Shown here piece after piece: positions 16,152 to 64,000 of a stretch of 64,000 nucleotides of DNA. A model generated the notes under the pieces. It saw nothing but the letters and a program-made list of their open reading frames with translations, was not told the DNA's origin and did not search any database. The DNA is from Candidatus Latescibacterota bacterium (GTDB taxonomy: Bacteria > Latescibacterota > UBA2968 > UBA8231): contig OY730476.1 in the NCBI GenBank assembly GCA_963422735.1, positions 2,752,001-2,816,000 of the forward strand, given 5' to 3'. A program made the translations under genes and the position numbers. How positions within the stretch are numbered: the first letter of the stretch is position 1; every line of letters begins with the position of its first letter.

Positions 16152-16980
16152 TTTCGTATTTCCGCTTTCTATTGGTCTGGCGGTTTTGCTCAGTTAGCTG
16201 CTCGGCGATGCCTTCCAATCGCCCGAAGCGACGGTCGTGGTCTTGGGCTTGGGGAAATGTTTGGGGTTGTTCGTAATTGATTGAATTATCCCCCCCCAAA
16301 CCATTTTGGGATATATTGATGGCGATGTGTACCCAAGAGACGCCTTTGAGTTGGTGGCTCTTGGTCCACTCTTGTTCGCCTTCTTCCAGCTCGGTCATCT
16401 GGAAAATGTGCCCTCTTCGAGTGCGATCGGACTCGGACATGGGCACATGGCGCGTCAGTTGCTGAAGGTCGTAGCCCTCGGCGCCGTCGGCTTTAAAGTT
16501 TAGGTAGGCGCGAATACCTCCAGCCCACGGCGAGTTGCCGTCTTTGTTGCTTACCGGTTCCCACCAGCCTTTTGATTGGTATTCGAGCTTGACGCGTTCG
16601 CCATCGACCCATATGTAGGTGTTGCCTTTGGGGTCTGGTGTCTTGAGCGATTCCTCACTCAAGACGATGGCCAAGTCGACGCGATACTTCCGCCTCGTAG
16701 CTTGAAAAGCGTAGACGATCTGGCCGCCCACTCTCACCCCCTTACCTATCACCCATTGCCTTTCAACTGAGGCGGCCATCTCGGCCTGAACCGGGACGGG
16801 CCGCCCTTGCGTAGTAGCCCTCTTCGGCGGCGTAGAGAGTGCGCTGAGGACACCCAAACCGAAGGTCATGAGGGCTCCAGCCGGCGTTACCGCCCCAGCC
16901 GCGTAGGCCGCACCTAACAGGCCCCCCTGCAGGCCCAGCCCGCGAGCTTCGTCTCCGGTGATGTTGTCTAAGGGTACCAT
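16152..16980 (-). pseudogene. Truncated tail-tip/host-specificity gene (copy A), N-terminal ~275 codons only
   Basis: Near-identical to the N-terminus of 46663..51624; homology ends at about 16152. Confidence 0.85.
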
Positions 16981-16983
16981 GCT

Positions 16984-17487
16984 CTATTTAGGGGGATAAT
17001 ATATTCCCATACCTTTATATCCACCTGTTGCTAGTTGCGCCGCATACTGCCAGCCCATGTCCTCATGGTGTCGCTTGAGCTGAGCCTGGTGGTCCCAGCG
17101 TTCTGCCGACGTGTTTTCATGGAGCCACCAGATCAAATGCTTGAGCTCGCCAACCGTAACCCCATTCTGCTGCACGAGGCGCGAGACCATGCCGGCGTAT
17201 AACCATCGTCGGTTCCAGCCGTTCCCAGTGTCTTCCAGCATCTGTATGCGCCCTATGGCAGCACCCGGATTTTGCGATCGGGGCACAGCTATCTCGAATG
17301 GGATGGCCGTCGGGATGCGAAGACCCGAGTTCAGTCGCATCTTGCCGATCATTATGAGCTTCTTGGCTGTGTAGGTGAAGCCACCGTAGATCAGGTCGTG
17401 CTCGCCGGTCCACGCTCGCCAGACGCCGGCCTGACCGGATACGATAGAGCGGGATGCGCTGCCTAGCTCAATGGTGTATGCCTGCAT
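16984..17487 (-). CDS. Minor tail/baseplate hub protein (lambda gpL-like position), copy A
   Basis: Between Dit-like and tail-tip genes; same protein as 51628..52131. Confidence 0.55.
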   Translation of the reverse strand: MQAYTIELGSASRSIVSGQAGVWRAWTGEHDLIYGGFTYTAKKLIMIGKMRLNSGLRIPTAIPFEIAVPRSQNPGAAIGRIQMLEDTGNGWNRRWLYAGMVSRLVQQNGVTVGELKHLIWWLHENTSAERWDHQAQLKRHHEDMGWQYAAQLATGGYKGMGIYYPPK

Positions 17488-17522
17488 CTAAGATTTGTTC
17501 GACGATAAAGTTTTATCACACA

Positions 17523-18116
17523 TCAAACCACTTCTTCGATCACCAGCGTCCAAGGACCCATGTAGTCTGGCAGATAGACATTTTCGATGGGACGGATTAC
17601 TCGGGCACTAATCTTGGTCGCTGGGGACAGCGCATCTTCCGCATCCAGTCTTAGATTGGGCACGATGGTGATCTGGTCGGATGAGTTGCCCTCGACCACT
17701 TTGACCACGGACACCAGTCGGTTCGCTATGTTGGCATAGTGCCCCGCTTTGGCGTTGTGTTTTTTTAGAACGCCGGACAGCGTGAGCATTCCGTCTGTCG
17801 TAGTTGCTTTGCTGGTGTACGTCCCGCTCCATGATGGGCTATCGGGCTCGAAGGTTGGGAGTGGCAGGTTGATGTCGGCATGGTTGCTCTGACCTTGCAG
17901 CGCATGAAGCCAAGCGGCGATGGCCCTCGCTCTGTCTCCGTTTTTCTGTATCGGAATACGTATCCCGCCTTCAAACCGGTAGTACTGGTTGCCGCGCTCG
18001 TAGGTGTATCGCTGTCCTGTCACGGGGCTTACGTAGGCCGACTGGCCCGGTGTGGCTAGTCGCAGGTTGTAACGGTCTGGCGTCGCGCTCAGTGTGATAG
18101 TGGTTAGCTTTGCCAT
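17523..18116 (-). CDS. Distal tail-like protein, copy A
   Basis: Immediately downstream of tape measure; 197 aa; duplicate at 52167..52760. Confidence 0.55.
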   Translation of the reverse strand: MAKLTTITLSATPDRYNLRLATPGQSAYVSPVTGQRYTYERGNQYYRFEGGIRIPIQKNGDRARAIAAWLHALQGQSNHADINLPLPTFEPDSPSWSGTYTSKATTTDGMLTLSGVLKKHNAKAGHYANIANRLVSVVKVVEGNSSDQITIVPNLRLDAEDALSPATKISARVIRPIENVYLPDYMGPWTLVIEEVV

Positions 18117-20922
18117 GGTTATGCGTATTCGCGTTGGGACGATGACGAATGATATATTGGTGCTGATAAGTTGAGGCCCTCGGCTGCTTCCTGCACTCCT
18201 CCCCGAAGTCTAGCTTCCCAGTGTCGATGAAGTCATATACTTGACCCAACAGGTTGTCAGTCACGCGGCGCATCGCTAGCTGAGATAGGCTTCTGGCCAA
18301 GTCCTCGACGACCTCTGACAGGCTCTTGAAGCCTTGGGTGGCCTTCAGTAGAGTGTCGGCCAAGATGTCGGCGGTGTCCTTGAGCGTGTCGCGCCATTCC
18401 TGCGTCCGCTCGTCGGTCAGACGTATGCCGTCGGCCACTCCGCGCAGCTCTGCTAGTCGGGCCTGTATTATGTTCGTCTGATCTTGTTCTGGTTGGGAGA
18501 GGTCTCGTCCTTTTGCCTGACCCATTATTTCATGCAGTTCAGCTTGCAGATCGTTGATCTGCTCGTTAACCTCGGAAGCTTGGAGCCGTAGTTGCGCTGT
18601 TACGGGCACTTCGAGCGGTACGGCTTCGACTGGCATTGCGTCCAACCGATCATCTCTATCTAATAATTCCGCGGCGTCTTGTATCAGCTTGTCCCGTTGC
18701 TTCTTCAGTTCTGGGGATAGCCCTTGTATTTCGCCTGTTTGAGCCTGTTCATTCCGCAGATTTGCGATATCGTCCTGAAAATGACGTAGACGATCTAGCA
18801 AGGCTTGCACCTGATTTTCATCTTCAGTTGCCCCTTCAAAAGCTGTTGTATCCGTCACCCCTGCGGCGGATAGCGTTTCTATCAGTTCGTCCTTGTTCGC
18901 TTGTATGGTTTCGGCTTGCTGTTGTAGGATATCTTGTAGTTGTCCGATCTGCACTGCGAAGTTTGTCAAGGGGGACACCCCCGACAGGTCGGCCAGTCCC
19001 AGCCTGTTGGTAGCCCGATCGACATCCTGCTGACGGCTAATATCGCTGAGCAGATCGGCAGCGGACATCGCAGATTCTTTCGCTACTTTAGTCCTATTCG
19101 TCCACTCTTCCGTATCAAATTCCAGCACCGCCGCGGCGTCTTGTATCAGCTTGTGCAGTTGCTTCTTCTGCTCTGCGCTTGGCGCGGTTTCCTTATAGTC
19201 CCCTCTCAAATTTTCGAGATAGCCCCTCAACGGAGAAAGGCGACCCAGCAAGGCTTGTAGCTGACCTTGCTCTTCAGTTACAGCCTGTTCAAAAGCGGTT
19301 GTATCCACCTTGGATTCGACTAGCTTTCCTCTCAGTTCGTCGCTGACCCTTTTCTGGTCGTCTAAGCGCTGTTGTATGACCTGTCGTAGGCTCTCGGCCT
19401 GTAGTGCGTAGTCTGTCTTCGAGGGTACCCCCGGCGGCTTGTACAGTCCCAGATCGCTGATAGCCTGATCGGTGGACTCGCGAAAGCGAATATTGCTGAG
19501 TAGTTCAGTAGCGGGAACTGGGCCTGGTTGGGCGACCCTCTCGTTCAGTTCGTTCAGTTTCTGCGCAAGCTCAGGGCTTATTTCGACCTCTCTCTGAAAA
19601 TTCAGTGCTCTACTCGGAGATACTTGTGCTTTCTCGCCACCTTTAAGGTCTACTGCATTTATCCCTTGGGTTTTTATCCATTCTTCTAATTGCTCCTGGG
19701 TGTTGTTGGCCCGCATTGTGTATTCTGGCTTGGGGAACAAAGGCGGTTGTCCTGTCGGCCCGTGCGGTTGTCCTGTCGGCTCGTCCTCGCTCATAAGGAG
19801 GTCTTTAAGCCAAGCCGCCCCGGCGACACTGCCAGCAACCTGTAACGCCTTCCCACCAGATTTTCCTAATTTTCCTATGTTCCCGCTTTTACCAGCTAAT
19901 TTTAACCCTTTGTATGCACTGTGGGCCCATTTGGCAGCACTGTAGCCCCTTCCAAGAGCGGAGAAGCTAGTCAGGACTAACAGCATGTCGACTGCAAAGT
20001 CTACCACTTGACGGCCTCGTTCCTCAGCCTCTCTTGGCGTACCTCCAAGTCCTGCGGGCGTCAGTTGCCCCAGCTTGCCAATGATCTCGACCACTCGGTC
20101 GAGGGCCCCCTTAAAGCCTGCCTCCAGTATAGGGGCCGCCTCGCGCAGCTTCGTCAGCATGTTCGATATGGGATCTTCTAGGTCGCCAAAGACGCGGAGC
20201 ATGGACGTTTTGAACTCCATGGCGGTGACGTGGTATTCGCCTCGGACGCGTGCCAAGCCCTCTATCTGCTCGGCTTTTGCCTTCCGCTCGTCCGCCCTAA
20301 AAGCAGCCAGTCGTTGCTCGAAATCTGGTCGCGTGGCCGCAGCCAGAAGAGCTTTGGCGTCTTCCTCGCCGAAGATGGGGCGAGCGATGGCCTCGCGGCG
20401 ACCCACATCCTCCATGGCGGCCAGCCGTTGCAGCATCTCGTCAAGCAGGTCTGTGGTGGGCCGTATCTTGCCTTGGGCGTCTTCGAGTTGTAGCCCGATC
20501 TCGCGGAAGAACTGGCCGCGCTCGGCGTCCGGCTCGACCCATGCCTCTCCTACGGACTCCACGAACGTCAGGATGGCTTCGGATACGTTATCGAGGTCGG
20601 CAGCGAAGACTTTGGCGTAGGCCTGCACATCATTGAGGGAGATGCGGCCTCGCACACTGAGAAGCTGTAGCTCCTCCCCGAGCATGGCCGCTTCGCGGGC
20701 GGCGGCCCCCAGCGAGAAGACCGCGGCACCAGCCGCCACCGAGCTCCACTGCTTCAGCGACTGGATGCCCTGCCGCACCCGGTCGTTGTACTGCTGTATG
20801 GCCCGCTGGTTGCGGCGCAGTTGTCGTCGCTGTTTCTCCAGCTCTGCGGCGGTGCGGCGCGACCCCTGTACGAACTGGGCGTAGCGAGCCTTTATGTTGG
20901 CAACCACTTCTGGGACAGCCAC
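17971..20922 (-). CDS. Tape measure protein, copy A (1-bp deletion near the 3' end extends the ORF)
   Basis: Long Ala/Gln-rich helical protein after the chaperone genes, with internal repeats; C4 at 18201-18204 versus C5 in copy B. Confidence 0.85.
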   Translation of the reverse strand: MAVPEVVANIKARYAQFVQGSRRTAAELEKQRRQLRRNQRAIQQYNDRVRQGIQSLKQWSSVAAGAAVFSLGAAAREAAMLGEELQLLSVRGRISLNDVQAYAKVFAADLDNVSEAILTFVESVGEAWVEPDAERGQFFREIGLQLEDAQGKIRPTTDLLDEMLQRLAAMEDVGRREAIARPIFGEEDAKALLAAATRPDFEQRLAAFRADERKAKAEQIEGLARVRGEYHVTAMEFKTSMLRVFGDLEDPISNMLTKLREAAPILEAGFKGALDRVVEIIGKLGQLTPAGLGGTPREAEERGRQVVDFAVDMLLVLTSFSALGRGYSAAKWAHSAYKGLKLAGKSGNIGKLGKSGGKALQVAGSVAGAAWLKDLLMSEDEPTGQPHGPTGQPPLFPKPEYTMRANNTQEQLEEWIKTQGINAVDLKGGEKAQVSPSRALNFQREVEISPELAQKLNELNERVAQPGPVPATELLSNIRFRESTDQAISDLGLYKPPGVPSKTDYALQAESLRQVIQQRLDDQKRVSDELRGKLVESKVDTTAFEQAVTEEQGQLQALLGRLSPLRGYLENLRGDYKETAPSAEQKKQLHKLIQDAAAVLEFDTEEWTNRTKVAKESAMSAADLLSDISRQQDVDRATNRLGLADLSGVSPLTNFAVQIGQLQDILQQQAETIQANKDELIETLSAAGVTDTTAFEGATEDENQVQALLDRLRHFQDDIANLRNEQAQTGEIQGLSPELKKQRDKLIQDAAELLDRDDRLDAMPVEAVPLEVPVTAQLRLQASEVNEQINDLQAELHEIMGQAKGRDLSQPEQDQTNIIQARLAELRGVADGIRLTDERTQEWRDTLKDTADILADTLLKATQGFKSLSEVVEDLARSLSQLAMRRVTDNLLGQVYDFIDTGKLDFGEECRKQPRASTYQHQYIIRHRPNANTHNHGKANHYHTERDARPLQPATSHTGPVGLRKPRDRTAIHLRARQPVLPV

Positions 20923-20924: not shown

Positions 20925-21517
20925 TTAGCCTTGTTCCTTTCGATACGACCCGTAGAGGGCCGCTAGGTTACGCAGCCCTTCTATGCGCTTCTCTGGGTCG
21001 TTTTCCTCGTCGTCTTCGGGTTCTGATGTCTTAAGGAAAGCAGCCGCTACCAGTGGGAAGGATGGGTAGCGAGCCAGATGACGCAGCCAGCCCTGGTACT
21101 CAACGTTGGGGAGCGCGTTGACTTGGGCTAGCGTGAGACCGAGGGCGCGAGCGACTAGGTAGGGTCGTCGTTCTCGTCGTCCTCCTTCTGGTTACTCCGC
21201 TTGGGGCCGAAGCAGACCTCGCTGCACTTTTTAACCAGCGGGCCGTCCGCCCCACCCGTGCGCTGTATCAAGGCCCACGCCTGCTCGTCGCTCAGCTCGA
21301 CCGCCGCCGCGACCCGAACGGTCTCGACGATGATGCCGTTTGTTCGGGCACCGGCCTCTGGTGCTTCGCTGTCCAGTGCTTCCCACTGGCTCAAGATGCG
21401 GTCCGCTTCGGACTTGGACGGGTAGCGCAAGGGGATGGGTACGCCCTCGGCGGTCTCGTAGGGCGACGGCTGCGACTCGATCAGGGCGATCAATTCTTGA
21501 GTAGGTGTTTCTTTCAT
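20925..21517 (-). CDS. Tail assembly chaperone G (21155..21517) and GT -1 frameshift extension (to 20925), copy A
   Basis: G ends GAC GAC CCT ACC TAG; the -1 frame reads PYLVARALGLTLAQVNALPNVEYQGWL...; lies between major tail and tape measure genes. Confidence 0.75.
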
Positions 21518-21525
21518 GGGACTCC

Positions 21526-22170
21526 TTATCCGCCAATGACGGGCAGTGCGACTTGTACTATGGGTTGGATGCCGATCGTGATGGAAGTACTGTCTTCGCT
21601 GAACGACGGCACGATAGGCCCCGTGATGACCGCATTGAAGGACCACGTCATGGACGGCACCAGGACCTTGTAGGACGCCGTGGCTGAGACATCTGAATCC
21701 GGTTTCTCGACCTTTATCGTCGTCCCGTTCACCTCGATGATAGGGTGGTACTTAGACCCCACCTTGATGACGGCTCCGACGAATGCTTCGCCTTTGTCGC
21801 CATCGGGGCCTCCGCCCGCGAAGGTACAAGCCCCATTGCTTCTGGCGATGGCGATAGTTTTGGAGCTATCCCCTGGGAACAGCTCCATCTTCTTCGTGGC
21901 GATCTCGATGTTTTTTAATTCGCCGCAGACCCAGCTATCGTACATGCTGCTCCACACGTCTAGCGCGAAGGATGGGTTGAAATCCGCACTATAGCTGGGA
22001 ATGTCGCCGGACGTTGTTATGACCTGCACCCCGTCGAAGTCGCGGATATTGCTGACGTTGCGCTCGCCGCCGGACGACGTCAGAGACCGTAGGCCGGGCA
22101 CACGCACCCCCCCTACTTTGAAGTCCATGTGCGCGGTCGGGATGGTGGCTGGGGACAGTTTCTTGGCCAT
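21526..22170 (-). CDS. Major tail tube protein, copy A
   Basis: 214 aa beta-rich protein upstream of the chaperone and tape measure genes. Confidence 0.7.
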   Translation of the reverse strand: MAKKLSPATIPTAHMDFKVGGVRVPGLRSLTSSGGERNVSNIRDFDGVQVITTSGDIPSYSADFNPSFALDVWSSMYDSWVCGELKNIEIATKKMELFPGDSSKTIAIARSNGACTFAGGGPDGDKGEAFVGAVIKVGSKYHPIIEVNGTTIKVEKPDSDVSATASYKVLVPSMTWSFNAVITGPIVPSFSEDSTSITIGIQPIVQVALPVIGG

Positions 22171-22180: not shown

Positions 22181-22660
22181 CTATCCGATAAGGCTGCGCG
22201 TGGCAGCCGAGTTCGTGCGACCGAGGTCGTCTATCGCCTTGGCCATGCTACGACGTAGGGCGTCTTCGATGGCTTCGACCGTCACATTCGATTGCAAAGC
22301 CTTCTCGACAAAGCGATTGGCGCGGATGCGCCCAGTGCGGCCTCCGCTTTTCTTGCGCCGCCGCGGCACCGTGCCCAGCGTCTGAAGGTGCGTGTGCGGG
22401 GCACCGACCAGCAGGCCGATGCGTCGCTCGCCAGCCACCTGCACCCGCTGGCTCCGGCCCGTCTTGTCTGCCTTGCCACGCAGCCGCCGACGAAGCAGGC
22501 CGGTGCGCACGGGTGCGCCGCGCCGCGCTTCCTTAGCGGCAGCACGAGCCACCCGGACACCCGCTTGGCCGTATGCGTGATCCGCAAAGCGCGGGGTGTC
22601 CAGCTCGTTCAGCAGACCGATCAGTTCCTCTAGGCCTAGCAGTTCAAGGTCAAGTTCCAT
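22181..22660 (-). CDS. HK97 gp10-like tail completion protein, copy A
   Basis: LLGLEEL start, APVRTGLLRR, H-x-x-x-x-GT, ANRFV motifs. Confidence 0.75.
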   Translation of the reverse strand: MELDLELLGLEELIGLLNELDTPRFADHAYGQAGVRVARAAAKEARRGAPVRTGLLRRRLRGKADKTGRSQRVQVAGERRIGLLVGAPHTHLQTLGTVPRRRKKSGGRTGRIRANRFVEKALQSNVTVEAIEDALRRSMAKAIDDLGRTNSAATRSLIG

Positions 22661-22789: not shown

Positions 22790-22834
22790 TTTTATACTGG
22801 ATGATACGGAGGTGCTTCGTAGGTTGTAGGTATG
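22790..22834 (+). promoter_or_regulatory. Element-specific sigma70-like promoter cassette (variant)
   Basis: ttttatactggatg...cttcg-taggtt-gtaggt-ATG, similar to the cassettes at 26721, 38711 and 40178. Confidence 0.5.
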
Positions 22835-23272
22835 GAAACCAGCGGCGGCAAATGGATCAGGCCAGACAAGCGGTTGGCCATCTACTTGCGAGACGGCCTT
22901 GCCTGCGTTTGGTGTGGGTGGGCTATCGAGGATGGCGAGCGGCTGAGCTTGGACCACATAACCCCCCACTCTAAGGGGGGCAGCAACGGAGCCGACAACT
23001 TGATCGCTTGCTGCCTCCGCTGCAATTCCTCGCGGCAGGATCGCAGCATCGACGAGTTCGCCCAGCGCGTGGTGGAGTACCACAAGAAGGGCGACCCCTC
23101 GGAGATCCTGGCGCGCATCGAGTACCACAAGAAGGGCGACCCCTCGGAGATCCTGGCGCGCATCGAGCACAAGCTGGGTCTCGACTTAGCCCCTTATCGA
23201 GACGAGGCCAAGCGAATCATCGCCCGGCGCAAGGACGAAAGGACGGGCAACCCCTGTGGTGGTGTCTCGTGA
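22832..23272 (+). CDS. HNH endonuclease
   Basis: RDGLACVWCG, LDHITPHSKGG, NLIACCLRCN. Confidence 0.85.
   Translation: METSGGKWIRPDKRLAIYLRDGLACVWCGWAIEDGERLSLDHITPHSKGGSNGADNLIACCLRCNSSRQDRSIDEFAQRVVEYHKKGDPSEILARIEYHKKGDPSEILARIEHKLGLDLAPYRDEAKRIIARRKDERTGNPCGGVS
23075..23164 (+). repeat. 45-bp perfect tandem duplication (EYHKKGDPSEILARI x2)
   Basis: gagtaccacaagaagggcgacccctcggagatcctggcgcgcatc twice. Confidence 0.95.
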
Positions 23273-45495: not shown

Positions 45496-46662
<1,167 letters not shown>

Positions 46663-52131: not shown

Positions 52132-52166
52132 CTAAGATTTGTTCGACGATAAAGTTTTATCACACA

Positions 52167-52760: not shown

Positions 52761-52762
52761 GG

Positions 52763-55572: not shown

Positions 55573-55574
55573 GC

Positions 55575-56167
55575 TTAGCCTTGTTCCTTTCGATACGACC
55601 CGTAGAGGGCCGCTAGGTTACGCAGCCCTTCTATGCGCTTCTCTGGGTCGTTTTCCTCGTCGTCTTCGGGTTCTGATGTCTTAAGGAAAGCAGCCGCTAC
55701 CAGTGGGAAGGATGGGTAGCGAGCCAGATGACGCAGCCAGCCCTGGTACTCAACGTTGGGGAGCGCGTTGACTTGGGCTAGCGTGAGACCGAGGGCGCGA
55801 GCGACTAGGTAGGGTCGTCGTTCTCGTCGTCCTCCTTCTGGTTACTCCGCTTGGGGCCGAAGCAGACCTCGCTGCACTTTTTAACCAGCGGGCCGTCCGC
55901 CCCACCCGTGCGCTGTATCAAGGCCCACGCCTGCTCGTCGCTCAGCTCGACCGCCGCCGCGACCCGAACGGTCTCGACGATGATGCCGTTTGTTCGGGCA
56001 CCAGCCTCTGGTGCTTCGCTGTCCAGTGCTTCCCACTGGCTCAGGATGCGGTCCGCTTCGGACTTGGACGGGTAGCGCAAGGGGATGGGTACGCCCTCGG
56101 CGGTCTCGTAGGGCGGCGGCTGCGACTCGATCAGGGCGATCAATTCTTGAGTAGGTGTTTCTTTCAT
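55575..56167 (-). CDS. Tail assembly chaperone G/GT, copy B
   Basis: Duplicate of 20925..21517. Confidence 0.75.
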
Positions 56168-56175
56168 GGGACTCC

Positions 56176-56826: not shown

Positions 56827-56836
56827 TGTTTTTTCT

Positions 56837-57316
56837 CTATCCGATAAGGCTGCGCGTGGCAGCCGAGTTCGTGCGACCGAGGTCGTCTATCGCCTTGGCC
56901 ATGCTACGACATAGGGCGTCTTCGATGGCTTCGACCGTCACATTCGATTGCAAAGCCTTCTCGACAAAGCGATTGGCGCGGATGCGCCCAGTGCGGCCTC
57001 CGCTTTTCTTGCGCCGCCGCGGCACCGTGCCCAGCGTCTGAAGGTGCGTGTGCGGGGCACCGACCAGCAGGCCGATGCGTCGCTCGCCAGCCACCTGCAC
57101 CCGCTGGCTCCGGCCCGTCTTGTCTGCCTTGCCACGCAGCCGCCGACGAAGCAGGCCGGTGCGCACGGGTGCGCCGTGCCGCGCTTCCTTAGCGGCAGCA
57201 CGAGCCACCCGCACACCCGCTTGGCCGTATGCGTGATCCGCAAAGCGCGGGGTGTCCAGCTCGTTCAGCAGACCGATCAGTTCCTCTAGGCCTAGCAGTT
57301 CGAGGTCAAGTTCCAT
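56837..57316 (-). CDS. HK97 gp10-like protein, copy B
   Basis: Duplicate of 22181..22660. Confidence 0.75.
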   Translation of the reverse strand: MELDLELLGLEELIGLLNELDTPRFADHAYGQAGVRVARAAAKEARHGAPVRTGLLRRRLRGKADKTGRSQRVQVAGERRIGLLVGAPHTHLQTLGTVPRRRKKSGGRTGRIRANRFVEKALQSNVTVEAIEDALCRSMAKAIDDLGRTNSAATRSLIG

Positions 57317-57631
57317 CGTGTCGCCTGTGATTGGGGAGTACTAGGAATAATCAGGAAAACTGTCTTTTTTGGCAAGGTGTCCCAAGTCGTCAGCAGCTTA
57401 GCTGAGGACCGCCAATCTTTTTGTCTCGGTGATAAAATTCTATCATTTTATACTGGATGATACGGAGGTGCTTCGTAGGTTGTAGGTATGGAAACCAACG
57501 GCGGCAAATGGATCAGGCCAGACAAGCGGTTGGCCAGTGTCCCCCGACCCGTGGCGCGACGAGGCCCGACAGGCCGACACGGAGGCCGCCAATCCTCCAT
57601 CCCTTTTTCCACCCCAGAAGGAGTCAGATCC

Positions 57632-58276
57632 ATGAAAACTTGCTTGGTCGTTGGGGCGCACCCCGACGACATGGAGCTCGGATGCTGCGCCACCGTCCTC
57701 AACTTGATCGAGCGGGAGTGGGATGTGTGGTCGTTGGCCTTGGCGGACAACACGTTGACAGTCGTCGGTCAGGGCTTCGATGACTGTCATTTTCAGGCGG
57801 AGCGGCAGGAGGCCGCTCAGGTGCTGGGCATCCCGCAGGATCGCTTGCTGACGCACCGCTTCCCGGTGCGCGACTTCCCAGCACACCGGCAGGATATTCT
57901 GGAGCACCTATACAAGATGGTGCGCGACATGGAGCCAGAGATGGTTTTGTGTCCCTCGTCCACCGACATCAATCAGGATCACTTGGTCGTCTATGAGGAG
58001 ACCGTCCGGGCCTGCACGGGCATACCCTGCTCGATATTTGGGTACTACCTGCCGTGGAACAACCGGCAGGTTGGCCTCACCTTCTTCTCCTCTTTCACCG
58101 AGAAGTACATGTCCTTGAAGGAGGAGGCGCTGGCTTGCTATCGCTCCCAGGCCCACCGGCCATACATGCGGCCCGGGGCCGCCCGGGCTTTTGCGCAAAC
58201 GATGGGCACGTGCAGCTATGTCCTCCCGTTGGCCGAGCCGTTGGAGCCCATCCGGTGCATGTTGAGTGCATCATAG
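57632..58276 (+). CDS. PIG-L/LmbE deacetylase, copy B (also in frame with the HNH start at 57488)
   Basis: Duplicate of 27393..28037. Confidence 0.88.
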   Translation: MKTCLVVGAHPDDMELGCCATVLNLIEREWDVWSLALADNTLTVVGQGFDDCHFQAERQEAAQVLGIPQDRLLTHRFPVRDFPAHRQDILEHLYKMVRDMEPEMVLCPSSTDINQDHLVVYEETVRACTGIPCSIFGYYLPWNNRQVGLTFFSSFTEKYMSLKEEALACYRSQAHRPYMRPGAARAFAQTMGTCSYVLPLAEPLEPIRCMLSAS

Positions 58277-58416: not shown

Positions 58417-59043
58417 ATGATGCACACGATAGCACTTGTTTCTCAGAAAGGCGGTAGCGGCAAGACGACGCTGGCGGTGGCCCTCGCGGTTGCGCACGAG
58501 CTGGCGGGCGGTTCTTCGGTGGTGATCGATCTAGACCCGCAAGGGTCGGCGGGGGTGTGGAGCGATCTTCGGGGCGACCTTACACCGGTAGTAGTAGCGG
58601 CTCACCCGCCTAGGCTAGCACGGTCGCTCAATGCAGCCCGTACCGCGGGGGCGTCGCTAGCGGTGATCGACATGGCCCCTCGGGAAGCGGGCGGTGCGGT
58701 AGAAGCAGCCCGGTGTTCGGATTTGGTACTGGTGCCGTGCCGGCCGTCGGCGGTGGACTTGGCAGCCATCCCAGCCAGCCTAGCCGTGGCCCAGCTGGCG
58801 GAGACGGCGGTGGCCGTGGTACTGAACGCGGTTCCTCCCCGCGGGGATTTGGCGGCGCAAGCAGTGGAAGCCGTTCAAGGCTTCGGGGCGATAGCGACTC
58901 CAGTGACGATCGGGACGCGGGTGGCGCATGTTAGGGCGTTCACATCTGGGAGGACAGCCCAAGAGACCGAACCCCGCTCCGTGGCGGCTGCCGAGGTTGA
59001 AGCCCTGTACCAATGGATTTTCACGAAAGACTGGAGACTATGA
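58417..59043 (+). CDS. parA: ParA partition ATPase, copy B
   Basis: Same protein as copy A. Confidence 0.9.
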   Translation: MMHTIALVSQKGGSGKTTLAVALAVAHELAGGSSVVIDLDPQGSAGVWSDLRGDLTPVVVAAHPPRLARSLNAARTAGASLAVIDMAPREAGGAVEAARCSDLVLVPCRPSAVDLAAIPASLAVAQLAETAVAVVLNAVPPRGDLAAQAVEAVQGFGAIATPVTIGTRVAHVRAFTSGRTAQETEPRSVAAAEVEALYQWIFTKDWRL

Positions 59044-59264
59044 AGAAGCAGACGACGCTTGCGGACGCCATGCAGCGGGCCACGAGCGAGCCGAAGACGA
59101 CGTCAAGGGTCGCCCCGTCCCGGCGCGGTAAGAAGGCCGTGGTCCTATACGTCGAACCGGAGCTGGCGAAGCGGCTAAAGGTGCTCGCAGCCGAGAACGA
59201 GACGACCATCCATGCTCTCGGCTTGAAAGCCCTTGACCTCTTGTTTGAGCAACTGGAGGTATGA
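59040..59264 (+). CDS. ParG-like RHH protein, copy B
   Basis: Same protein as copy A. Confidence 0.75.
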   Translation: MKKQTTLADAMQRATSEPKTTSRVAPSRRGKKAVVLYVEPELAKRLKVLAAENETTIHALGLKALDLLFEQLEV

Positions 59265-59357
59265 TAAAAGATGCATCATAATGTGCATGGTATCATATAG
59301 CCAAAAGGAGTCTCTCCGTAAGATGTGTTTTGCTCCGAAAACTATCGGACTCGACCC

Positions 59358-60452
59358 ATGTCCCAGCTAAAATACCTGACCGTCCGCGGCTTCAAGTCCA
59401 TCCGCACGCTCGAAGATTTCGAGTTGCGGCCATTGAATGTGCTGCTCGGCGCCAACGGGGCTGGCAAGAGCAACTTCATCGGTCTGTTCCGCATGCTGGC
59501 CGAGTTGACCGAACAGCGCCTGCAACGATTCGTCGTCGAGCAGGACGGCCCGGACGCGCTGCTGTTCGGCGGACGCAGGCAAACGGCCAGTCTGGATGCG
59601 GAATTCGTCTTCGGGAGAAACGGCTACGGCTTCTCCCTCGTGCCGGCAGGCAACGGCCTGATCTTCGATCGGGAGGAGACGGTTTTTTTCGATGATTTAC
59701 GTCCAAAGGTAGAACACGCGCTGGGGAGCGGCCATCGGGAAGCGCTTCTGCCGGACAGGGTCGACGACGACACCTTCGCCTCGTATGTCCTGCCAGCCAT
59801 TCAAGGCTGGCGCATCTATCACCTTCACGATACCAGCGCATCAGCGCCCGCGCGGCAGGCATCGGCAGTGCGGGACAACCTTCGCTTGAAGCCGGACGCG
59901 GGGAATCTGGCACCGTTCCTGCGTCGTCTGCGGGAACGGCATGCGGCGCACTATCAACGCATTGTTCGCACTGTGCGCTTGGTCGCGCCTTTCTTTGGAG
60001 ACGTTGTCTACCGCAAGGAACCGGGGGAGCGTATTGAACTCGAGTGGTCGGAAACGAACGACCCGGATACTGTGCGCGGCCCGCGCCAGCTCTCCGACGG
60101 CACCCTGCGCTTCATCTGCCTGATGACGCTGCTTCTGCAACCGGCCCATCTGCAACCGGATACCATCCTCATCGACGAACCCGAGCTCGGGCTGCATCCT
60201 TACGCGCTGGCTGTGCTCGGCGCCCTGCTGCGGCAGGCCAGCGAAACGAAGCAGCTCATCGTCGCCACGCAATCGGTGGAACTGGTCCACGAGTTGGCAC
60301 CGGAGGATGTGGTGGTGGTCGATCGCGAAAACGGCACGTCCGTGTTCGAACGGCTGGATTCGGAACGCTTGGGCGAATGGCTGAAGGACTACGCGCTGGG
60401 CGATCTGTGGAAGATGAATATCCTCGGCGGGAGGCCAAGGCGCGATGGTTGA
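59358..60452 (+). CDS. ABC/AAA_21-type ATPase
   Basis: GANGAGKSN, LSDGTLR, ILIDEPELGLHP, VATQS. Confidence 0.88.
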   Translation: MSQLKYLTVRGFKSIRTLEDFELRPLNVLLGANGAGKSNFIGLFRMLAELTEQRLQRFVVEQDGPDALLFGGRRQTASLDAEFVFGRNGYGFSLVPAGNGLIFDREETVFFDDLRPKVEHALGSGHREALLPDRVDDDTFASYVLPAIQGWRIYHLHDTSASAPARQASAVRDNLRLKPDAGNLAPFLRRLRERHAAHYQRIVRTVRLVAPFFGDVVYRKEPGERIELEWSETNDPDTVRGPRQLSDGTLRFICLMTLLLQPAHLQPDTILIDEPELGLHPYALAVLGALLRQASETKQLIVATQSVELVHELAPEDVVVVDRENGTSVFERLDSERLGEWLKDYALGDLWKMNILGGRPRRDG

Positions 60453-61134
60453 GGTAATCGTCGTCTGCGAAGGCCGGGCCGAGGAGACCTTTGTGCGTGA
60501 GGTGCTAGGCGCAGAGCTTGCGCACCGGAGTGTGTTTCTCCAGCCGCGATTGATGACGACCTCCCCGGGGCATCGCGGCGGTGCGCTCAGCCGCGACAGG
60601 GTCGTGCGCTATCTGTGTACTACGTTGCGAGAACGCCGGGATGTCTATGTCACCACGCTGTTCGATCTGTACGGCTTGCCTAGCGGTTTTCCTGGACAAG
60701 GCAGCTCCGACGGAAAGGCCGACCCCATCGAACGCGCGGCATCCATCGAGCAGGACTTGCATGAAATCGTGGTGCAGAGCGCCAAATGCCGACCAGACCG
60801 ATTTCTGCCCCACATTCAGCCCCACGAGTTCGAATCCCTTCTCTTTTCCGACGTCGCACAATTCGCGGAAGTAGAACCGGACTGGCAGTCCTTCTTGGGC
60901 GTATTGCGGAACGTCCAACAAACGGCCCCAAGCCCGGAACACATCAACGACGGTCAGGATACGCACCCTTCGGCTCGCTTAAGGCAAGTGTTGGGCGCTT
61001 CATACCAAAAAGTATTGCACGGCGCCGCCGTATCGGCCCAAATCGGCCTCGAACGCATTCGTGCCGAGTGCCGTCATTTCAGAGAATGGCTGACCCGGTT
61101 GGAAGAACTCCCTCCGCTGCGCGAGGACAACTAG
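60445..61134 (+). CDS. DUF4276-like (TOPRIM-type) protein
   Basis: VVCEGRAEE, TTLFDLYGLP, HEFESLLFSD, PEHIND, HPSARL, CRHFREW. Confidence 0.78.
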   Translation: MVEVIVVCEGRAEETFVREVLGAELAHRSVFLQPRLMTTSPGHRGGALSRDRVVRYLCTTLRERRDVYVTTLFDLYGLPSGFPGQGSSDGKADPIERAASIEQDLHEIVVQSAKCRPDRFLPHIQPHEFESLLFSDVAQFAEVEPDWQSFLGVLRNVQQTAPSPEHINDGQDTHPSARLRQVLGASYQKVLHGAAVSAQIGLERIRAECRHFREWLTRLEELPPLREDN

Positions 61135-61877: not shown

Positions 61878-62852
61878 CTACGCGCTCCGCAGGATGCGCC
61901 GCTTGGCGAAGCGGACGGTCTCGGCGATCCCTCCCTCTAGCGACACCTTGGGCTCGTAGCCCAAGAGCGTCCGGGCACAGGTCAGGTCGGGGCAGCGTCG
62001 CTTGGGAGCATCCTCGTGTGGGTTAGGTTCATGTTCGATCCTGCTCTTGGACTGGGTGATACGTAGGACGGACTCGGCCACATCGAGGATCGTATGTTCT
62101 GCATCGTTGCCGATGTTGATGGGCTTTACTATGGGCGAGCGCAGTAGGGCGAGTATGCCGGCCACTATGTCGGATACATAGCACGGGCTGCGCGTCTGCC
62201 GGCCGTTGCCCTGCACGGTCAGGGGCCAACCGTGCAGGGCCTGCTCAACGAAGGTGGGCATCATGCGGCCGTCGTCCGACTTCATGCGAGGCCCGTAGGC
62301 GTTGAAGATGCGGACGATGCGGGTGTCCAGCCCATGCTTGCGATGGTAGGTCATCGTCAGTGCCTCGGCATATCGCTTGGCCTCGGCATAGACGCCCCGG
62401 ACGCTGGTATGATCGATGTTGCCAGTGTAGGTCTCTGGCTGAGGATGAACCAGCGGGTCGCCGTACACCTCGCTGGTAGAGGCCATCAGGAAGGTAGCCC
62501 CCTCGTACCGGGCTAGTTCGAGGGCCGCTTTGGTGCCTTGGGCTCCAGCTTCCAGTATCTCCATCGCCATCGACTCTACGAGCGTCGGCGTGGAAGGACT
62601 GGCCAGATGAAGCACATAGTCGATAGAGCCAGACCCAACCTCTTTCATTAGTCTCGCCAGCAGGTGTTCTCCCTTCGACACGTTGGTCTGCAAGAACCGG
62701 AACGACGGGTTGTCCCACAGCAAGTGGGACAGGTTGTCGCCAGTGGATGTCAGGAGGCTGTCGAGGGCTATCACTTCATGCCTCTCAGCTAAAAGGGCGT
62801 CGCATAGGTGCGACCCTAAGAACCCGGCACCGCCGGTGATGATTGTCCTCAT
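61878..62852 (-). CDS. UXS-like NAD-dependent epimerase/dehydratase, copy B
   Basis: 2 aa differences from copy A. Confidence 0.9.
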   Translation of the reverse strand: MRTIITGGAGFLGSHLCDALLAERHEVIALDSLLTSTGDNLSHLLWDNPSFRFLQTNVSKGEHLLARLMKEVGSGSIDYVLHLASPSTPTLVESMAMEILEAGAQGTKAALELARYEGATFLMASTSEVYGDPLVHPQPETYTGNIDHTSVRGVYAEAKRYAEALTMTYHRKHGLDTRIVRIFNAYGPRMKSDDGRMMPTFVEQALHGWPLTVQGNGRQTRSPCYVSDIVAGILALLRSPIVKPINIGNDAEHTILDVAESVLRITQSKSRIEHEPNPHEDAPKRRCPDLTCARTLLGYEPKVSLEGGIAETVRFAKRRILRSA

Positions 62853-62862
62853 GTGTCCTGTG

Positions 62863-63201
62863 CTAGTATGTCCTCTTGTAATGGGCCAGCAGTCGCTCGC
62901 GCCGGGCCAGCAACTTCTCTAGGGCGTTCACGGCCTCGATGTCGCCTTGGGCCACCTTGGGCTGTATACTAGTCAGGGCCTCGTTGATGCGGGCTAGGTC
63001 GATGGCCCGTTGCACTTTCTGTTCGTCGAACCGCATACCTGCCTCGGCGATCAGTTCCTCGGCGACGACCTCGGCGTCGACTTTCAGCACCTTGACGGAC
63101 GTGCGGATGCCCTGCCGCTTCATCGCCTCGGCGATCTGTCTCATGGAGTAGCCTCGTATGATACAATCCTTGACGTAGGCTTGTCGCTCCGCTGCTTTCA
63201 T
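62863..63201 (-). CDS. terS-like HTH protein, copy B
   Basis: Duplicate of 34034..34372. Confidence 0.55.
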   Translation of the reverse strand: MKAAERQAYVKDCIIRGYSMRQIAEAMKRQGIRTSVKVLKVDAEVVAEELIAEAGMRFDEQKVQRAIDLARINEALTSIQPKVAQGDIEAVNALEKLLARRERLLAHYKRTY

Positions 63202-63992
63202 TGCAGTCGTGGGTTGATCCGGTTCACTGCTATGTTGCAGGAGCGACCCGTCAGTCCAATGGCATGAGCCGCAGCGGACCGCTTGAAGGACACGGCCCGG
63301 CCCCATTTGACCTTGAGCCGTTCTTCGCCCTGATGGTACTCGTCCCCCGACACCAGCCCGGTGTTGCCGCCCTTATTCCCTGAGTCCAATGCACACGTGA
63401 ACAGGACGCGCTGGTCGTACAGCATAGCCCGATCCTCGCGCAGTATCTCCAAGAAATGATCTACGTCCTCGCGGCCTCCGTCCGGGTAGTGCTGTAAGAC
63501 CTTGGCGTTGCCCCGTATTATTCGGAGCCCACCGCCCATGGTACCCACCGCCTTGAAGGGTTTTACGATATTGTCTGTCGAGCCGAAGATCCATGCGGTG
63601 GGCATGTCGCCGCAGCCCCCCCACGTCAGGTCGAGGTCTTGCAAGACCCGCACCATGTTCTCGATGTAGTTCAGGGTCTCTGTGGGGCTGGCACTCAGGC
63701 AATTGTTGCCGTCGGCCATGATCTCGATCCCCTGCAGGTCGTCATCGACAAAGGCCAGCGCGTCCTCGCTAAAATCCTCTTTCATCTTATTCATCACGCC
63801 GGCGTATCCATGGACGGGGACATGGGTGGCCAGTAGGTCGTCTGGCACCGCGGACGCATAGTCGTCGCGCTCGCGCTCATCCACATACCAAGTGGCCGTG
63901 GGCAGCAGCTCGCGTACGGATGGCACGTTCTCTGATCGCTTGCGCGACGGTATGATGAGGCGATAGTCCAGCGTCGGGTCCGGCGTCAGCAT
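63198..63992 (-). CDS. GT-A glycosyltransferase, copy B
   Basis: Duplicate of 34369..35163. Confidence 0.7.
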   Translation of the reverse strand: MLTPDPTLDYRLIIPSRKRSENVPSVRELLPTATWYVDERERDDYASAVPDDLLATHVPVHGYAGVMNKMKEDFSEDALAFVDDDLQGIEIMADGNNCLSASPTETLNYIENMVRVLQDLDLTWGGCGDMPTAWIFGSTDNIVKPFKAVGTMGGGLRIIRGNAKVLQHYPDGGREDVDHFLEILREDRAMLYDQRVLFTCALDSGNKGGNTGLVSGDEYHQGEERLKVKWGRAVSFKRSAAAHAIGLTGRSCNIAVNRINPRLQ

Positions 63993-64000
63993 AGCAGGTT

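What the first reader, a model, noticed from the sequence alone, without database searches (positions are those of the whole stretch)
16152..64000. Tandem, head-less, integrase-less phage element with plasmid-type partition genes
Seen: over one full ~34.6-kb period there are tail genes, terL, two terS-like genes and ParA+RHH. I recognise no portal, protease, capsid, head-tail adaptors, lysin, integrase, repressor or replisome. Only 1.4 kb of opposite-strand genes separates terL from the gp10-like gene. Copy B has also lost the terminase but keeps tail, par and visible sugar-modification genes. Established: F-type tailocins are head-less siphovirus tails, and phage-plasmids carry parA. Inference: either a domesticated tail-only particle, a helper-dependent element that supplies tails, or a captured phage-plasmid decaying as an array.
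Basis: partly seen in the sequence, partly recalled or inferred. Interest (0 to 1): 0.78.

Follow-up and report, generated by a model that had tools for sequence, protein, structure and literature searches.

The report
Decaying head-less prophage array with ParA
Two partial, nearly identical copies of a tailed-phage genome that has lost its head genes and integrase sit side by side in this bacterial chromosome; they look like an ordinary decaying prophage whose accessory genes are still kept, not a new kind of particle.

Summary
A phage-derived block of about 49 kb (window 16260 to about 65370) contains a 21-kb segment twice at 97-99% identity, separated by 13.7 kb of single-copy DNA. That is about 1.4 units of a 34.6-kb period.

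What the block carries:
- Siphovirus tail genes, an HNH/small-HTH/terL packaging set (copy A only), ParA plus RHH, sugar and DNA-modification genes, and a defence cassette (copy B only).
- No portal, protease, capsid, integrase, lysin or replication gene. The genome's only portal and capsid genes lie in a separate complete prophage 620 kb away.

Public-run contigs show both the A-type and B-type junctions, so two forms exist.

Signs of decay:
- Copy B is a 4.4-kb deletion derivative of an A-like unit.
- B's tape-measure gene is frameshifted.
- A's baseplate-hub gene is cut off at the host junction.
- Between the copies, tail genes evolve near neutrally (dN/dS 0.74). ParA, sugar and related genes are constrained (0.25).
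- Nothing similar was found in 75 related genomes.

Best reading: a defective prophage, or a captured phage-plasmid, in decay with retained cargo. A tailocin or a helper-dependent tail donor is not excluded but is unlikely.

The parts
14296..16119 (-). Host gene flanking the element on the left; not part of the element. The listed ORF 14296-16980 is a read-through into phage DNA.
   Evidence: 91% aa identity and synteny with G043 and G052 up to window 16131. Window 16000-16131 is conserved at 86-96% in the other genomes of the genus.
16172..16251 (-). 80-nt fragment of a small multi-copy gene (N-terminal part of a coiled-coil protein), stranded between the host and the truncated tail gene.
   Evidence: 98.75% identical to prophage 2 at G000:3416260-3416339, with many copies in the genus. 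Translations.
16263..16980 (-). Copy A: N-terminal ~239 codons of the baseplate-hub/Tal-like gene, cut off at the host junction.
   Evidence: Homologous to the N-terminus of the 1653-aa ORF of copy B. Homology stops at 16260.
16984..18116 (-). Copy A: two distal-tail ORFs (167 aa and 197 aa) in the Dit-like position.
   Evidence: Weak PHROG 'tail protein' hit for the 167-aa ORF. Same gene order as prophage 2. Structure models failed.
17971..20922 (-). Copy A: tape measure protein, 983 aa. Its C-terminal end differs from B by a 1-nt homopolymer indel at 18200.
   Evidence: PHROG tape-measure families and PF10145. Indels.
21155..22170 (-). Copy A: 163-aa ORF in the chaperone position and 214-aa major tail candidate.
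   Evidence: Position between Neck1 and the tape measure. Atlas feature hits to viral clusters with Phage_tail_2/Phage_tube_2 are a lead only. A and B are 86% identical in protein.
22181..22660 (-). Copy A: HK97 gp10-like / Neck1 (tail completion) protein.
   Evidence: phrog_5 at 2e-11. PF04883 and TIGR01725 are weak.
22832..23272 (+). HNH endonuclease on the opposite strand, sitting where the head module should be. It is followed by about 0.77 kb of lower-GC DNA (23273-24044).
   Evidence: PF01844 at 1.5e-10 and many PHROG HNH families. No remnant of the prophage-2 head proteins by tblastn.
24045..25889 (-). Large terminase (614 aa), in copy A only; looks intact.
   Evidence: phrog_9 at 2e-118, PF03354 and PF20441. 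It keeps all invariant columns of an 11-sequence alignment, including Walker A and B.
25905..26620 (-). Small HTH_23 protein in the terS position (25905-26381) and an HNH endonuclease (26330-26620). This is an HK97-type HNH-terS-terL arrangement.
   Evidence: Prophage 2 has the same order, HNH-terS-(ParB-like)-terL.
26791..28037 (+). MgsA_C-like ORF (copy A only) and a PIG-L/LmbE-like deacetylase.
28177..29024 (+). Copy A: ParA (208 aa) and RHH protein (83 aa), a small type-Ib-like partition pair.
   Evidence: PF01656, phrog_164 at 8e-31, NF041546 at 3.7e-47 (below its cut-off), PF20605. Between the copies there are 4 synonymous and 0 non-synonymous changes.
29078..32914 (+). Copy A cargo slot: PAPS-reductase/SspD-like gene, a C5-methylase fragment, and a phrog_15826-like gene with an in-frame stop.
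   Evidence: The methylase piece is 96% identical to prophage 2.
33049..37116 (-). Copy A sugar module: epimerase/dehydratase, 147-aa ORF, GT-like ORF, two ParB_N-like ORFs (from a 611-bp internal duplication) and WbqC.
37153..44100 (.). Single-copy segment I, left part: DegT aminotransferase (-), RadC, a methylase, a ParB_N-like 365-aa ORF, a Rieske-domain ORF (+), and small zinc-ribbon and TM ORFs (-).
44128..46590 (-). Single-copy segment I, right part: predicted lipoprotein, 126-aa ORF, and a collagen-like tail fibre.
   Evidence: 44642-46108 is 90.6% identical to prophage 2.
46663..51624 (-). Full-length baseplate-hub/Tal-like protein (1653 aa) with FN3 and Ig-like repeats. It spans the I/copy-B boundary at 50895.
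   Evidence: fn3 and He_PIG domains. Weak match to the T5 baseplate hub pb3, 7zhj_b, E 0.0012.
51628..57316 (-). Copy B tail module. The tape measure is split by a 1-nt deletion into 54007-55572 and 52763-53953.
   Evidence: The deletion allele is seen in contigs of 3 public runs.
57488..58276 (+). Copy B deletion joint. The first ~16 codons of the HNH gene are fused to the PIG-L-like ORF (A 22880 joined to A 27298).
   Evidence: The joint is seen in 4 of 4 public runs.
58417..59264 (+). Copy B: ParA and RHH.
59325..61134 (+). Copy B cargo slot: AAA_21 ATPase plus a DUF4276 protein, which is the candidate defence system HEC-01.
   Evidence: PDLC04175 at 6.5e-137 and PDLC04188 at 8.6e-71. Pfam hits.
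61878..64000 (-). Copy B sugar module. It continues to WbqC at window 64591-65334, and homology to A ends at about 65370.
   Evidence: The host flank starts at about 65416.

Best explanation
This is a defective, no longer particle-forming remnant of an HK97-type (HNH-terS-terL, cos-like) siphovirus that carried ParA/RHH instead of an integrase. It was either a phage-plasmid captured by the chromosome or a tandem prophage that lost its ends.

LAYOUT
About 1.4 units remain as D(A)-I-D(B).

INFERRED HISTORY
- The head module (portal to head-closure genes) was lost, and an opposite-strand HNH gene sits in its place.
- The unit was duplicated.
- Copy B then lost HNH-terL-terS by a 4.4-kb deletion and acquired a frameshift in its tape measure.
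- Copy A lost the distal half of its baseplate-hub gene and everything beyond it at the host junction.

WHAT STILL WORKS (INFERRED)
The cargo: ParA/RHH, the amino-sugar and glycosyltransferase module (possible surface or DNA modification), methylases, and the HEC-01 defence pair in copy B.

SHOWN VERSUS INFERRED
- Shown: the anatomy, the lesions and the selection contrast.
- Inferred: the order of events, the phage-plasmid ancestry and the usefulness of the cargo.
For: (1) No head, integrase, lysis or replication family was found among 53 + 38 ORFs. Genome-wide there is exactly 1 match each for Phage_capsid, Phage_portal, phrog_10 and phrog_12, and all four lie in prophage 2 at G000:3.398-3.402 Mb. 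There are 4 tyrosine recombinases in the genome and none in the element, and 0 large serine recombinases.

(2) Prophage 2 and an annotated phage (MZ501270) with a related terL show the canonical order terS-terL-portal-protease-capsid-connectors-tail. The missing block therefore maps exactly to the 1.4-kb terL/gp10 gap, and no head-gene remnants are left there.

(3) Copy B keeps the first ~16 codons of the HNH gene fused to the PIG-L ORF, so B derives from an A-like unit by deletion.

(4) Lesions:
- B's tape measure is split by a 1-nt deletion.
- A and B differ by a 1-nt indel at the tape-measure C-terminus.
- A's hub gene is truncated at 16260.
- There is an in-frame stop in the phrog_15826-like gene.
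- The methylase is a fragment.

(5) Selection between the copies:
- Tail genes have dN/dS 0.74 (Nd 105, Sd 46), not different from neutral (p 0.09).
- Non-tail genes have 0.25 (Nd 16, Sd 21; p 6e-5).
- Fisher test between the two groups gives p 0.004.
- dS is about 0.02 in both groups.

(6) The element is not conserved.
- The DNA search found no element in 30 of 30 other genomes of the genus.
- The major-tail candidate was found in 0 of 75 other genomes of the order.
- terL was found in 3 of 75, at 39% identity or less.

(7) Both forms occur in contigs of public runs from 4 studies.

(8) Precedents:
- Incomplete prophages preferentially lose packaging, replication and release genes (PMC7744054, abstract read).
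- Chromosomally integrated phage-plasmid relatives that keep partition genes are described (PMC10879196, passages read).
Against: - terL and the HNH and HTH genes of copy A are full-length, and terL keeps every invariant residue of its family. That is unexpected for old junk, though it fits recent decay.
- Taken together, the two copies still encode one version of every recognised tail component.
- The frameshifts lie in short homopolymers. The intact A allele of the tape measure could not be checked independently, because contigs show one allele per place.
- The dN/dS counts are small.
- Part of the A/B divergence (the major-tail patch, dS 0.15) is probably recombination rather than in-situ drift.
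- No plasmid replicon was found, so the phage-plasmid ancestry rests on ParA/RHH and the lack of an integrase alone.
- Contigs do not bridge the host/element junction; they break at the 80-nt repeat. Chromosomal placement therefore rests on the single-contig assembly.
Confidence: 0.68

Rival explanations
1. Helper-dependent element (a mirror image of capsid-forming PICIs). It makes its own terminase and tails, and borrows heads from the complete prophage 2 in the same genome.
For: - A complete related prophage with portal, protease and capsid is present. Its terL is 46% identical and its Neck1 about 35% identical.
- The two elements share 90-96% identical patches, including the collagen-like fibre, so they exchange DNA.
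- terL of copy A looks intact.
Against: - No integrase, excisionase, att repeats, replication initiator or repressor were found.
- The hub gene is truncated next to the only terminase copy.
- The tape measure of the other copy is frameshifted.
- Tail genes evolve near neutrally.
- No relatives share the architecture.
- Two full-text searches listed no satellite class that supplies tails. This is a keyword search, not proof of absence.
Confidence: 0.08
2. Domesticated F-type (flexible, non-contractile) tailocin. The two copies complement each other: the tape measure comes from A, and the hub and fibres come from B.
For: - The element is head-less.
- A tail module is present twice, with fibres and a large hub protein.
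- The union of A and B covers all recognised tail parts.
Against: - No holin, endolysin or regulator was found.
- A terminase is still present in A.
- Tail genes have dN/dS 0.74, not distinguishable from neutral.
- Each copy has a lesion in an essential tail gene.
- The element is absent from 75 of 75 other genomes of the order, unlike conserved tailocin loci.
Confidence: 0.07
3. The array is not one chromosomal locus. Two strain variants, or an extrachromosomal circle, were stitched into the chromosome by the metagenome assembler.
For: - The genome is a metagenome-assembled single contig.
- Both internal joins of D-I-D are what a circle or concatemer would give.
- Public-run contigs do not bridge the host/A junction.
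- The locus coincides with a synteny break relative to 4 of 4 relatives checked.
- In run X6 the host gene has much higher contig depth than the element.
Against: - Contig depths in two runs from different studies are about 1x for the host flank and for A-only DNA, and about 2x for shared DNA (236/215/415 in one run and 98/91/191 in the other). The B joint has about the same depth as the host. The tool warns that contig depth is not a copy number, so this is weak support.
- The outer junctions are specific truncations inside genes, as expected for real chromosomal junctions.
- The two outer ends are at different points of the unit, which a simple mis-joined circle would not give.
Confidence: 0.07
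4. A still complete phage whose head genes are too divergent to recognise.
For: Many ORFs have no family match.
Against: - The only unassigned ORFs of 250 aa or more are ParB_N-like (365 aa) and GT-like (294 aa).
- No room is left between terL and Neck1 (1.4 kb).
- terL belongs to the family whose partners (PF04860 and PF05065) are easily found in prophage 2.
Confidence: 0.03

Closest known systems
Defective (cryptic) prophages
   Same: - Phage modules are in phage order.
- Essential modules are missing.
- There are truncations and frameshifts.
- The element is strain-specific.
- Retained accessory genes are under selection.
- Loss of packaging, replication and release genes is the described trend (PMC7744054, abstract read).
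   Different: - It is present as 1.4 tandem units with natural internal joins.
- It has no integrase, whereas that paper reports integrases as enriched in incomplete prophages.
- It carries a ParA/RHH pair.
Chromosomally integrated relatives of phage-plasmids (P1-like cases in PMC10879196, passages read)
   Same: It has phage structural genes plus partition genes inside a chromosome, and no dedicated integrase is recognised.
   Different: - There is no sequence relation to P1.
- No replication gene was found.
- The head module is missing.
- The host phylum is different (Latescibacterota by record titles).
HK97-type cos siphoviruses with HNH-terS-terL packaging (prophage 2 of this genome; Pantoea phage AH07, MZ501270, for gene order)
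   Same: - It has an HNH next to the small terminase position.
- terL is of the same family (46% identity to prophage 2, about 37% to cultured phages).
- It has a gp10-like neck protein, tape measure, hub and collagen-like fibre.
   Different: Portal, protease, capsid, adaptor and stopper are absent. Integrase, RecT and helicase, which prophage 2 has, are also absent.
F-type tailocins (recalled from general knowledge; not tested against reference sequences)
   Same: It has head-less siphovirus-type tail genes in a chromosome.
   Different: - A terminase is retained.
- No lysis cassette was found.
- There are lesions in tail genes, which evolve near neutrally.
- It is not conserved among relatives.
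Capsid-forming PICIs (10.1101/2022.09.08.507074; search listing and start of abstract only)
   Same: Only as a mirror image: cf-PICIs make heads and packaging proteins and steal tails.
   Different: This element has tails and a terminase but no heads. It has no integrase or replication module, and it is far larger than satellites.

Membership tests
Defective/cryptic prophage | Phage hallmark genes in phage-like order | tested here: met
   HNH-HTH-terL ... Neck1-tube-chaperone-TMP-distal tail-hub-fibre. Same order as prophage 2.
Defective/cryptic prophage | One or more essential modules missing | tested here: met
   No portal, protease, capsid, lysis, integrase or replication hits. The genome-wide portal and capsid hits are only in prophage 2.
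Defective/cryptic prophage | Disrupted genes and relaxed selection on lytic functions | tested here: met
   Frameshift, truncation, in-frame stop and deletion joint. Tail genes have dN/dS 0.74 against 0.25 for cargo.
F-type tailocin | Complete intact tail module in one locus | tested here: not met
   A lacks most of the hub gene and the fibres. B's tape measure is frameshifted. Only the union of both copies is complete.
F-type tailocin | Lysis cassette and dedicated regulators | tested here: not met
   No lysin, holin or regulator family hit. There are only small TM and lipoprotein ORFs of unknown role.
F-type tailocin | No packaging genes | tested here: not met
   Copy A has an apparently intact terL.
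F-type tailocin | Locus conserved among related strains or species | tested here: not met
   Found in 0 of 75 other genomes of the order with the tube candidate. The DNA search found no element in 30 of 30 genomes of the genus.
Phage-plasmid | Partition system | tested here: met
   ParA plus RHH in both copies.
Phage-plasmid | Plasmid replication initiator or origin | tested here: not met
   No Rep, primase or helicase family hit.
Phage-plasmid | Extrachromosomal state | tested here: inconclusive
   The element is inside the single chromosome contig, with gene-internal junctions. Contigs do not bridge the host junction, and contig depth is only a weak guide.
Phage-plasmid | Full set of virion genes | tested here: not met
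   The head module is absent.
Phage satellite (PICI, cf-PICI, P4-like) | Integrase and att sites, own replication module, small size | tested here: not met
   No integrase. No replication genes. The unit is 34.6 kb. No tRNA or att-like flanking repeat was found.
Phage satellite (PICI, cf-PICI, P4-like) | Mobilised by a helper phage | not testable with these tools
   A candidate helper (prophage 2) exists. No particle or induction data are available.
Gene transfer agent | Own head genes, and conservation across a clade | tested here: not met
   No head genes. Not conserved.

The most novel reading that the evidence does not exclude
The array is a working 'tail-and-terminase donor'. It has no heads of its own, packages its DNA with its own HNH/terS/terL into capsids made by the resident prophage 2, and attaches its own tails. 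The two copies complement each other's lesions. That would be the reverse of capsid-forming PICIs and a satellite strategy that my two literature searches did not list.
Probability: 0.06. Interest if true: 0.8.

Novelty: new member of a known kind. Interest (0 to 1): 0.3.

Why it matters
As read here it is an ordinary case of prophage decay, with some modest points of interest:
- It documents, in an uncultured Latescibacterota symbiont lineage with almost no described phages, an integrase-less ParA/RHH siphovirus lineage.
- It shows stepwise erosion (head module, then terminase, then tail genes) while cargo stays under selection.
- A variable cargo slot after ParA-RHH holds a defence pair in one copy and DNA-modification genes in the other.

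Only if the minority reading were true (tails and terminase supplied to a helper's heads) would it change how phage satellites are classified.

Tried and rejected
- Close relatives with genomic context. The search for related loci with terL gave nothing closer than 26% identity in genome, viral and metagenome collections. The same search with its 76%-identical relative P0002 found only a 34% match in genome contigs and 24-30% matches in viral contigs. P0002 lies on contigs of 8.9 kb or less, and its neighbourhood could not be fetched, so whether a portal follows it stays open.
- Earlier notes of this scan: none for this genome.
- tRNA and Rfam scans of the window: 0 hits, so no tRNA attachment site.
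- Structure prediction of the 214-aa tube candidate and the 197-aa distal-tail ORF without alignments gave pLDDT 33-34. The models are unusable and no fold search was run.
- tblastn of prophage-2 head proteins against the terL/gp10 gap and the whole element found only chance-level hits, apart from the Neck1 homologue.
- Phage genes at the new position of the displaced host segment (G000:2.572-2.626 Mb): none among 17 ORFs.
- RNA evidence: no RNA holder was listed among the public runs, so nothing can be said on expression.
- Phasing of the frameshift alleles: the contigs are mosaics of A and B alleles, so this was not possible.
- A single-crossover insertion of a circle or dimer was considered and rejected as a complete explanation. 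The two outer ends lie at different points of the unit, and the left junction carries a fragment of a gene that segment I lacks.

Full report
WHAT IS THERE

The window is G000:C1:2752001-2816000 of a 4.95-Mb single-contig genome. Record titles of its closest relatives name it Candidatus Latescibacterota, with some labelled Gemmatimonadota.

Repeat structure. Self-comparison shows a long segment present twice:
- 16260-22880 matches 50895-57536 at 97.0%.
- 27298-29079 matches 57537-59319 at 99.2%.
- 32819-35780 matches 61648-64609 at 99.4%.
- 36117-37152 matches 64335-65370 at 97.0%.

Between the copies lie 13.7 kb of single-copy DNA (37153-50894). I call the pieces D(A), I and D(B). Together they make 49.1 kb, or 1.42 units of a 34.6-kb period.

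Copy A, read on the minus strand from right to left (Pfam and PHROG scans of 53 ORFs):
- HNH endonuclease (26330-26620)
- a small HTH_23 protein in the terS position (25905-26381)
- terL (24045-25889; phrog_9 at 2e-118)
- a 1384-nt gap
- HK97 gp10/Neck1-like protein (22181-22660)
- a 214-aa tube candidate
- a 163-aa ORF in the chaperone position
- tape measure (17971-20922)
- two distal-tail ORFs
- the first ~239 codons of a hub-like gene

To the right of the terminase, on the plus strand:
- an MgsA_C-like ORF and a PIG-L-like deacetylase
- ParA (208 aa) and an RHH protein
- a PAPS-reductase/SspD-like gene and a C5-methylase fragment

Then, on the minus strand, the sugar module: epimerase, a GT-like ORF, two ParB_N-like ORFs and WbqC. 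It continues into DegT in segment I.

Segment I also holds:
- RadC, a methylase, a ParB_N-like 365-aa ORF and a Rieske-domain ORF
- small ORFs and a collagen-like fibre
- most of a 1653-aa hub/Tal-like protein, with FN3 and Ig repeats and a weak match to T5 pb3

Copy B repeats the tail, PIG-L, ParA/RHH and sugar genes. In the cargo slot after RHH it carries an AAA_21 plus DUF4276 pair. This matches the candidate defence system HEC-01 at 6.5e-137 and 8.6e-71.

WHAT IS MISSING

None of the 91 ORFs scanned matched a portal, protease, capsid, adaptor, stopper, lysin, holin, integrase, repressor or replication family. 28 of them were also scanned against NCBIfam, with the same result.

- Whole-genome searches found exactly one match each for PF05065, PF04860, phrog_10 and phrog_12. 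All four lie at G000:3.398-3.402 Mb.
- The genome has 4 tyrosine recombinases and none in the element. The nearest is about 32 kb to the left, beyond housekeeping genes. There are 0 large serine recombinases.
- The only unassigned ORFs long enough to be a capsid or portal protein are a 365-aa ORF that looks ParB_N-like (Atlas lead) and a 294-aa GT-like ORF.
- The terL/gp10 gap holds an opposite-strand HNH gene (22832-23272) and about 0.77 kb of 49-52% GC DNA. It has no detectable remnant of head genes.
- The flanks are host genes. On the left: pheST, zapA, rny, ymdB, xseA, recN and a conserved 607-aa gene ending at 16119. On the right: a 433-aa gene, PhyH, an M19 peptidase, efp, accBC and others.

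THE SECOND PROPHAGE

At G000:3395200-3425634 lies a canonical prophage. Its order is HNH, terS, ParB-like, terL, portal, protease, capsid, Hc1, Neck1, tape measure, distal tail, collagen-like fibre, regulators, RecT, ParB-like, helicase and integrase.

- Its terL is 46% identical to the element's. Its tail proteins are 25-35% identical.
- It shares 90-96% identical DNA patches with the element: the fibre at 44642-46108 and the methylase at 30326-31001.
- It shows where the head module should be in the element. An annotated phage with a related terL shows the same order.

EVIDENCE FOR DECAY

(a) Copy B's joint. In copy B, A position 22880 is joined to A position 27298. B keeps the first ~16 codons of the HNH gene, fused in frame to the PIG-L ORF. 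B therefore derives from an A-like unit by a 4417-nt deletion that removed HNH, terL, the HTH gene, the second HNH and the MgsA_C-like ORF.

(b) The tape measure. B's tape measure is split by a 1-nt deletion (AAA to AA) into 521-aa and 396-aa ORFs. A and B also differ by 1 nt (C4 against C5) near the tape-measure C-terminus. The B state gives the tidy stop/start arrangement, and the A state gives a 146-nt overlap with the next gene.

(c) The left end. A's hub gene stops at 16260. Between it and the host gene lies an 80-nt fragment of a small gene. The fragment is 98.75% identical to one in prophage 2's regulatory region, and segment I lacks it. The left end therefore went through at least two deletions.

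(d) The right end. Homology to A ends 36 nt upstream of WbqC, cutting the operon off from DegT.

(e) Other lesions. A phrog_15826-like gene has an in-frame stop, and the C5-methylase is a fragment.

(f) Selection between the copies:
- Tail genes: Nd 105, Sd 46, dN/dS 0.74. This is not distinguishable from neutral (p 0.09).
- PIG-L, ParA, RHH, epimerase, the 147-aa ORF, the GT-like ORF and WbqC: Nd 16, Sd 21, dN/dS 0.25 (p 6e-5).
- The two groups differ (Fisher p 0.004; p 0.008 without the tube gene).
- dS is about 0.02 in both groups, which fits one split time. The exception is the tube gene (dS 0.15, 86% protein identity), which looks like a recombination patch.

Against decay:
- terL keeps all 77 invariant columns of an 11-sequence alignment.
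- The union of the two copies still has one version of each recognised tail gene.

IS THE ARRAY REAL?

Contigs of four public runs from four studies were laid on 15001-35000.

- The B-type joint 22880->27298 appears in 4 of 4 runs. One 2689-nt contig carries 907 and 1782 nt on its two sides.
- A-only sequence is present with 0 mismatches over 4.1-4.2 kb in two runs.
- One contig bridges 22880 in the A form.
- In two runs the contig depths are about 236 and 98 for the host flank, 215 and 91 for A-only DNA, and 415 and 191 for shared DNA. This fits two copies per chromosome. The tool warns that contig depth is not a copy number, so I treat it as weak support.
- The B alleles of both 1-nt indels are seen. 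The A alleles cannot be checked, because there is one contig per place.
- No contig bridges the host/A junction; contigs break at the 80-nt repeat.
- In one run the host gene has about nine-fold higher depth than the element. This hints that the element is not fixed in the species.

CONTEXT IN RELATIVES

- In 4 of 4 relatives checked (G043, G049, G052, G054) the two host flanks are 24-33 kb apart. For G043 this host segment was matched to G000:2587195-2609914, which lies between DUF6785/6784 paralogues.
- In G000, 53 nt of the right flank are duplicated at the end of that segment. No phage genes lie there.
- The element itself was not found elsewhere. The DNA search of 30 genus genomes gave only the host-gene piece, the 80-nt repeat, and scattered weak matches such as a 67-71% match to the epimerase gene.
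- The tube candidate was found in 0 of 75 other genomes of the order.
- terL was found in 3 of 75, at 39% identity or less.
- The closest terL anywhere is 76% identical, on short contigs whose context I could not fetch.

INTERPRETATION

The simplest account is a defective remnant of an integrase-less, ParA/RHH-bearing, HK97-type siphovirus.

- Both internal joins of D-I-D are natural: the WbqC<-DegT operon, and the intact hub ORF. This is what a circular genome, a concatemer or a tandem prophage gives.
- The outer ends are truncations at different points of the unit.
- I cannot tell whether the head module was lost once before the copies split, or separately in each copy. The shared HNH start next to Neck1 shows only that the HNH insertion is older than the split.
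- Phage-plasmid ancestry is an inference from ParA/RHH and the missing integrase. No replicon was found.
- Integrated relatives of phage-plasmids that keep partition genes are in print (PMC10879196, passages read).
- Preferential loss of packaging, replication and release genes in incomplete prophages is also in print (PMC7744054, abstract read).
- The retained and constrained genes are the parts most likely still in use: the partition pair, the amino-sugar and glycosyltransferase module, and the defence pair. Their roles, such as surface or DNA modification and defence, are inferred from family names only.

VERDICT

This is a real, two-copy, head-less and integrase-less phage remnant: a new member of a known kind (defective prophage, possibly a captured phage-plasmid). 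The tailocin and helper-dependent readings remain possible at a few percent each, and the steps listed above would settle them.

Noticed in passing
window 16172-16251; G000:C1:3416260-3416339; G045:C1:3774782-3775436: An ~80-nt sequence is multi-copy across the genus, with up to 14 matches in G045 and three spaced ~285-290 nt apart. It encodes the N-terminus of a small coiled-coil protein with a hydrophobic tail. One copy is a gene in prophage 2, and a fragment sits at the element's left junction.
   Followed up: partly
G000:C1:2587195-2609914 versus window 16131/65416: In 4 of 4 relatives checked the two host flanks are 24-33 kb apart. For G043 the intervening host segment matches a place 165 kb upstream in this genome. 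That place is bordered by DUF6785/6784 paralogues and by a 53-nt copy of window 65418-65470. The element sits exactly at this synteny break.
   Followed up: partly
window 59325-61134 versus 29078-31009: The slot after ParA-RHH is variable. Copy B holds an AAA_21 plus DUF4276 pair (candidate defence system HEC-01). Copy A holds a PAPS-reductase/SspD-like gene and a C5-methylase fragment.
   Followed up: partly
G000:C1:3395200-3425634 (L068, L069): A complete-looking HK97-type prophage with an integrase. It shares 90-96% identical patches with the element (collagen-like fibre, methylase), so there was recent DNA exchange between the two.
   Followed up: yes
window 38349-38588 and 43774-43998; 38711-38766 and 40179-40234: 240-nt direct repeats (91% identical) flank a 5.4-kb block (RadC, methylase, ParB_N-like, Rieske-domain and zinc-ribbon ORFs). 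A 56-nt promoter-like repeat precedes two of its operons.
   Followed up: no
window 35506-35780 and 36117-36391: A 611-bp internal duplication in copy A gives two ParB_N-like ORFs where copy B has one.
   Followed up: no
window 21526-22170 versus 56176-56826: The tube candidate is far more diverged between the copies (86% protein identity, dS 0.15) than its neighbours (dS about 0.02-0.03). This suggests a recombination patch.
   Followed up: partly
window 33049-38354: Epimerase/dehydratase, GT-like ORF, WbqC and DegT aminotransferase, next to ParB_N-like ORFs and methylases. This could be a surface-sugar conversion module or a DNA hypermodification module. It is under purifying selection between the copies.
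   Followed up: no
window 15001-35000 in run X6: The host flank has contig depth about 131, while the element has about 11-15. The element may be absent from most cells of this species in that sample. Contig depth is only a rough guide.
   Followed up: no
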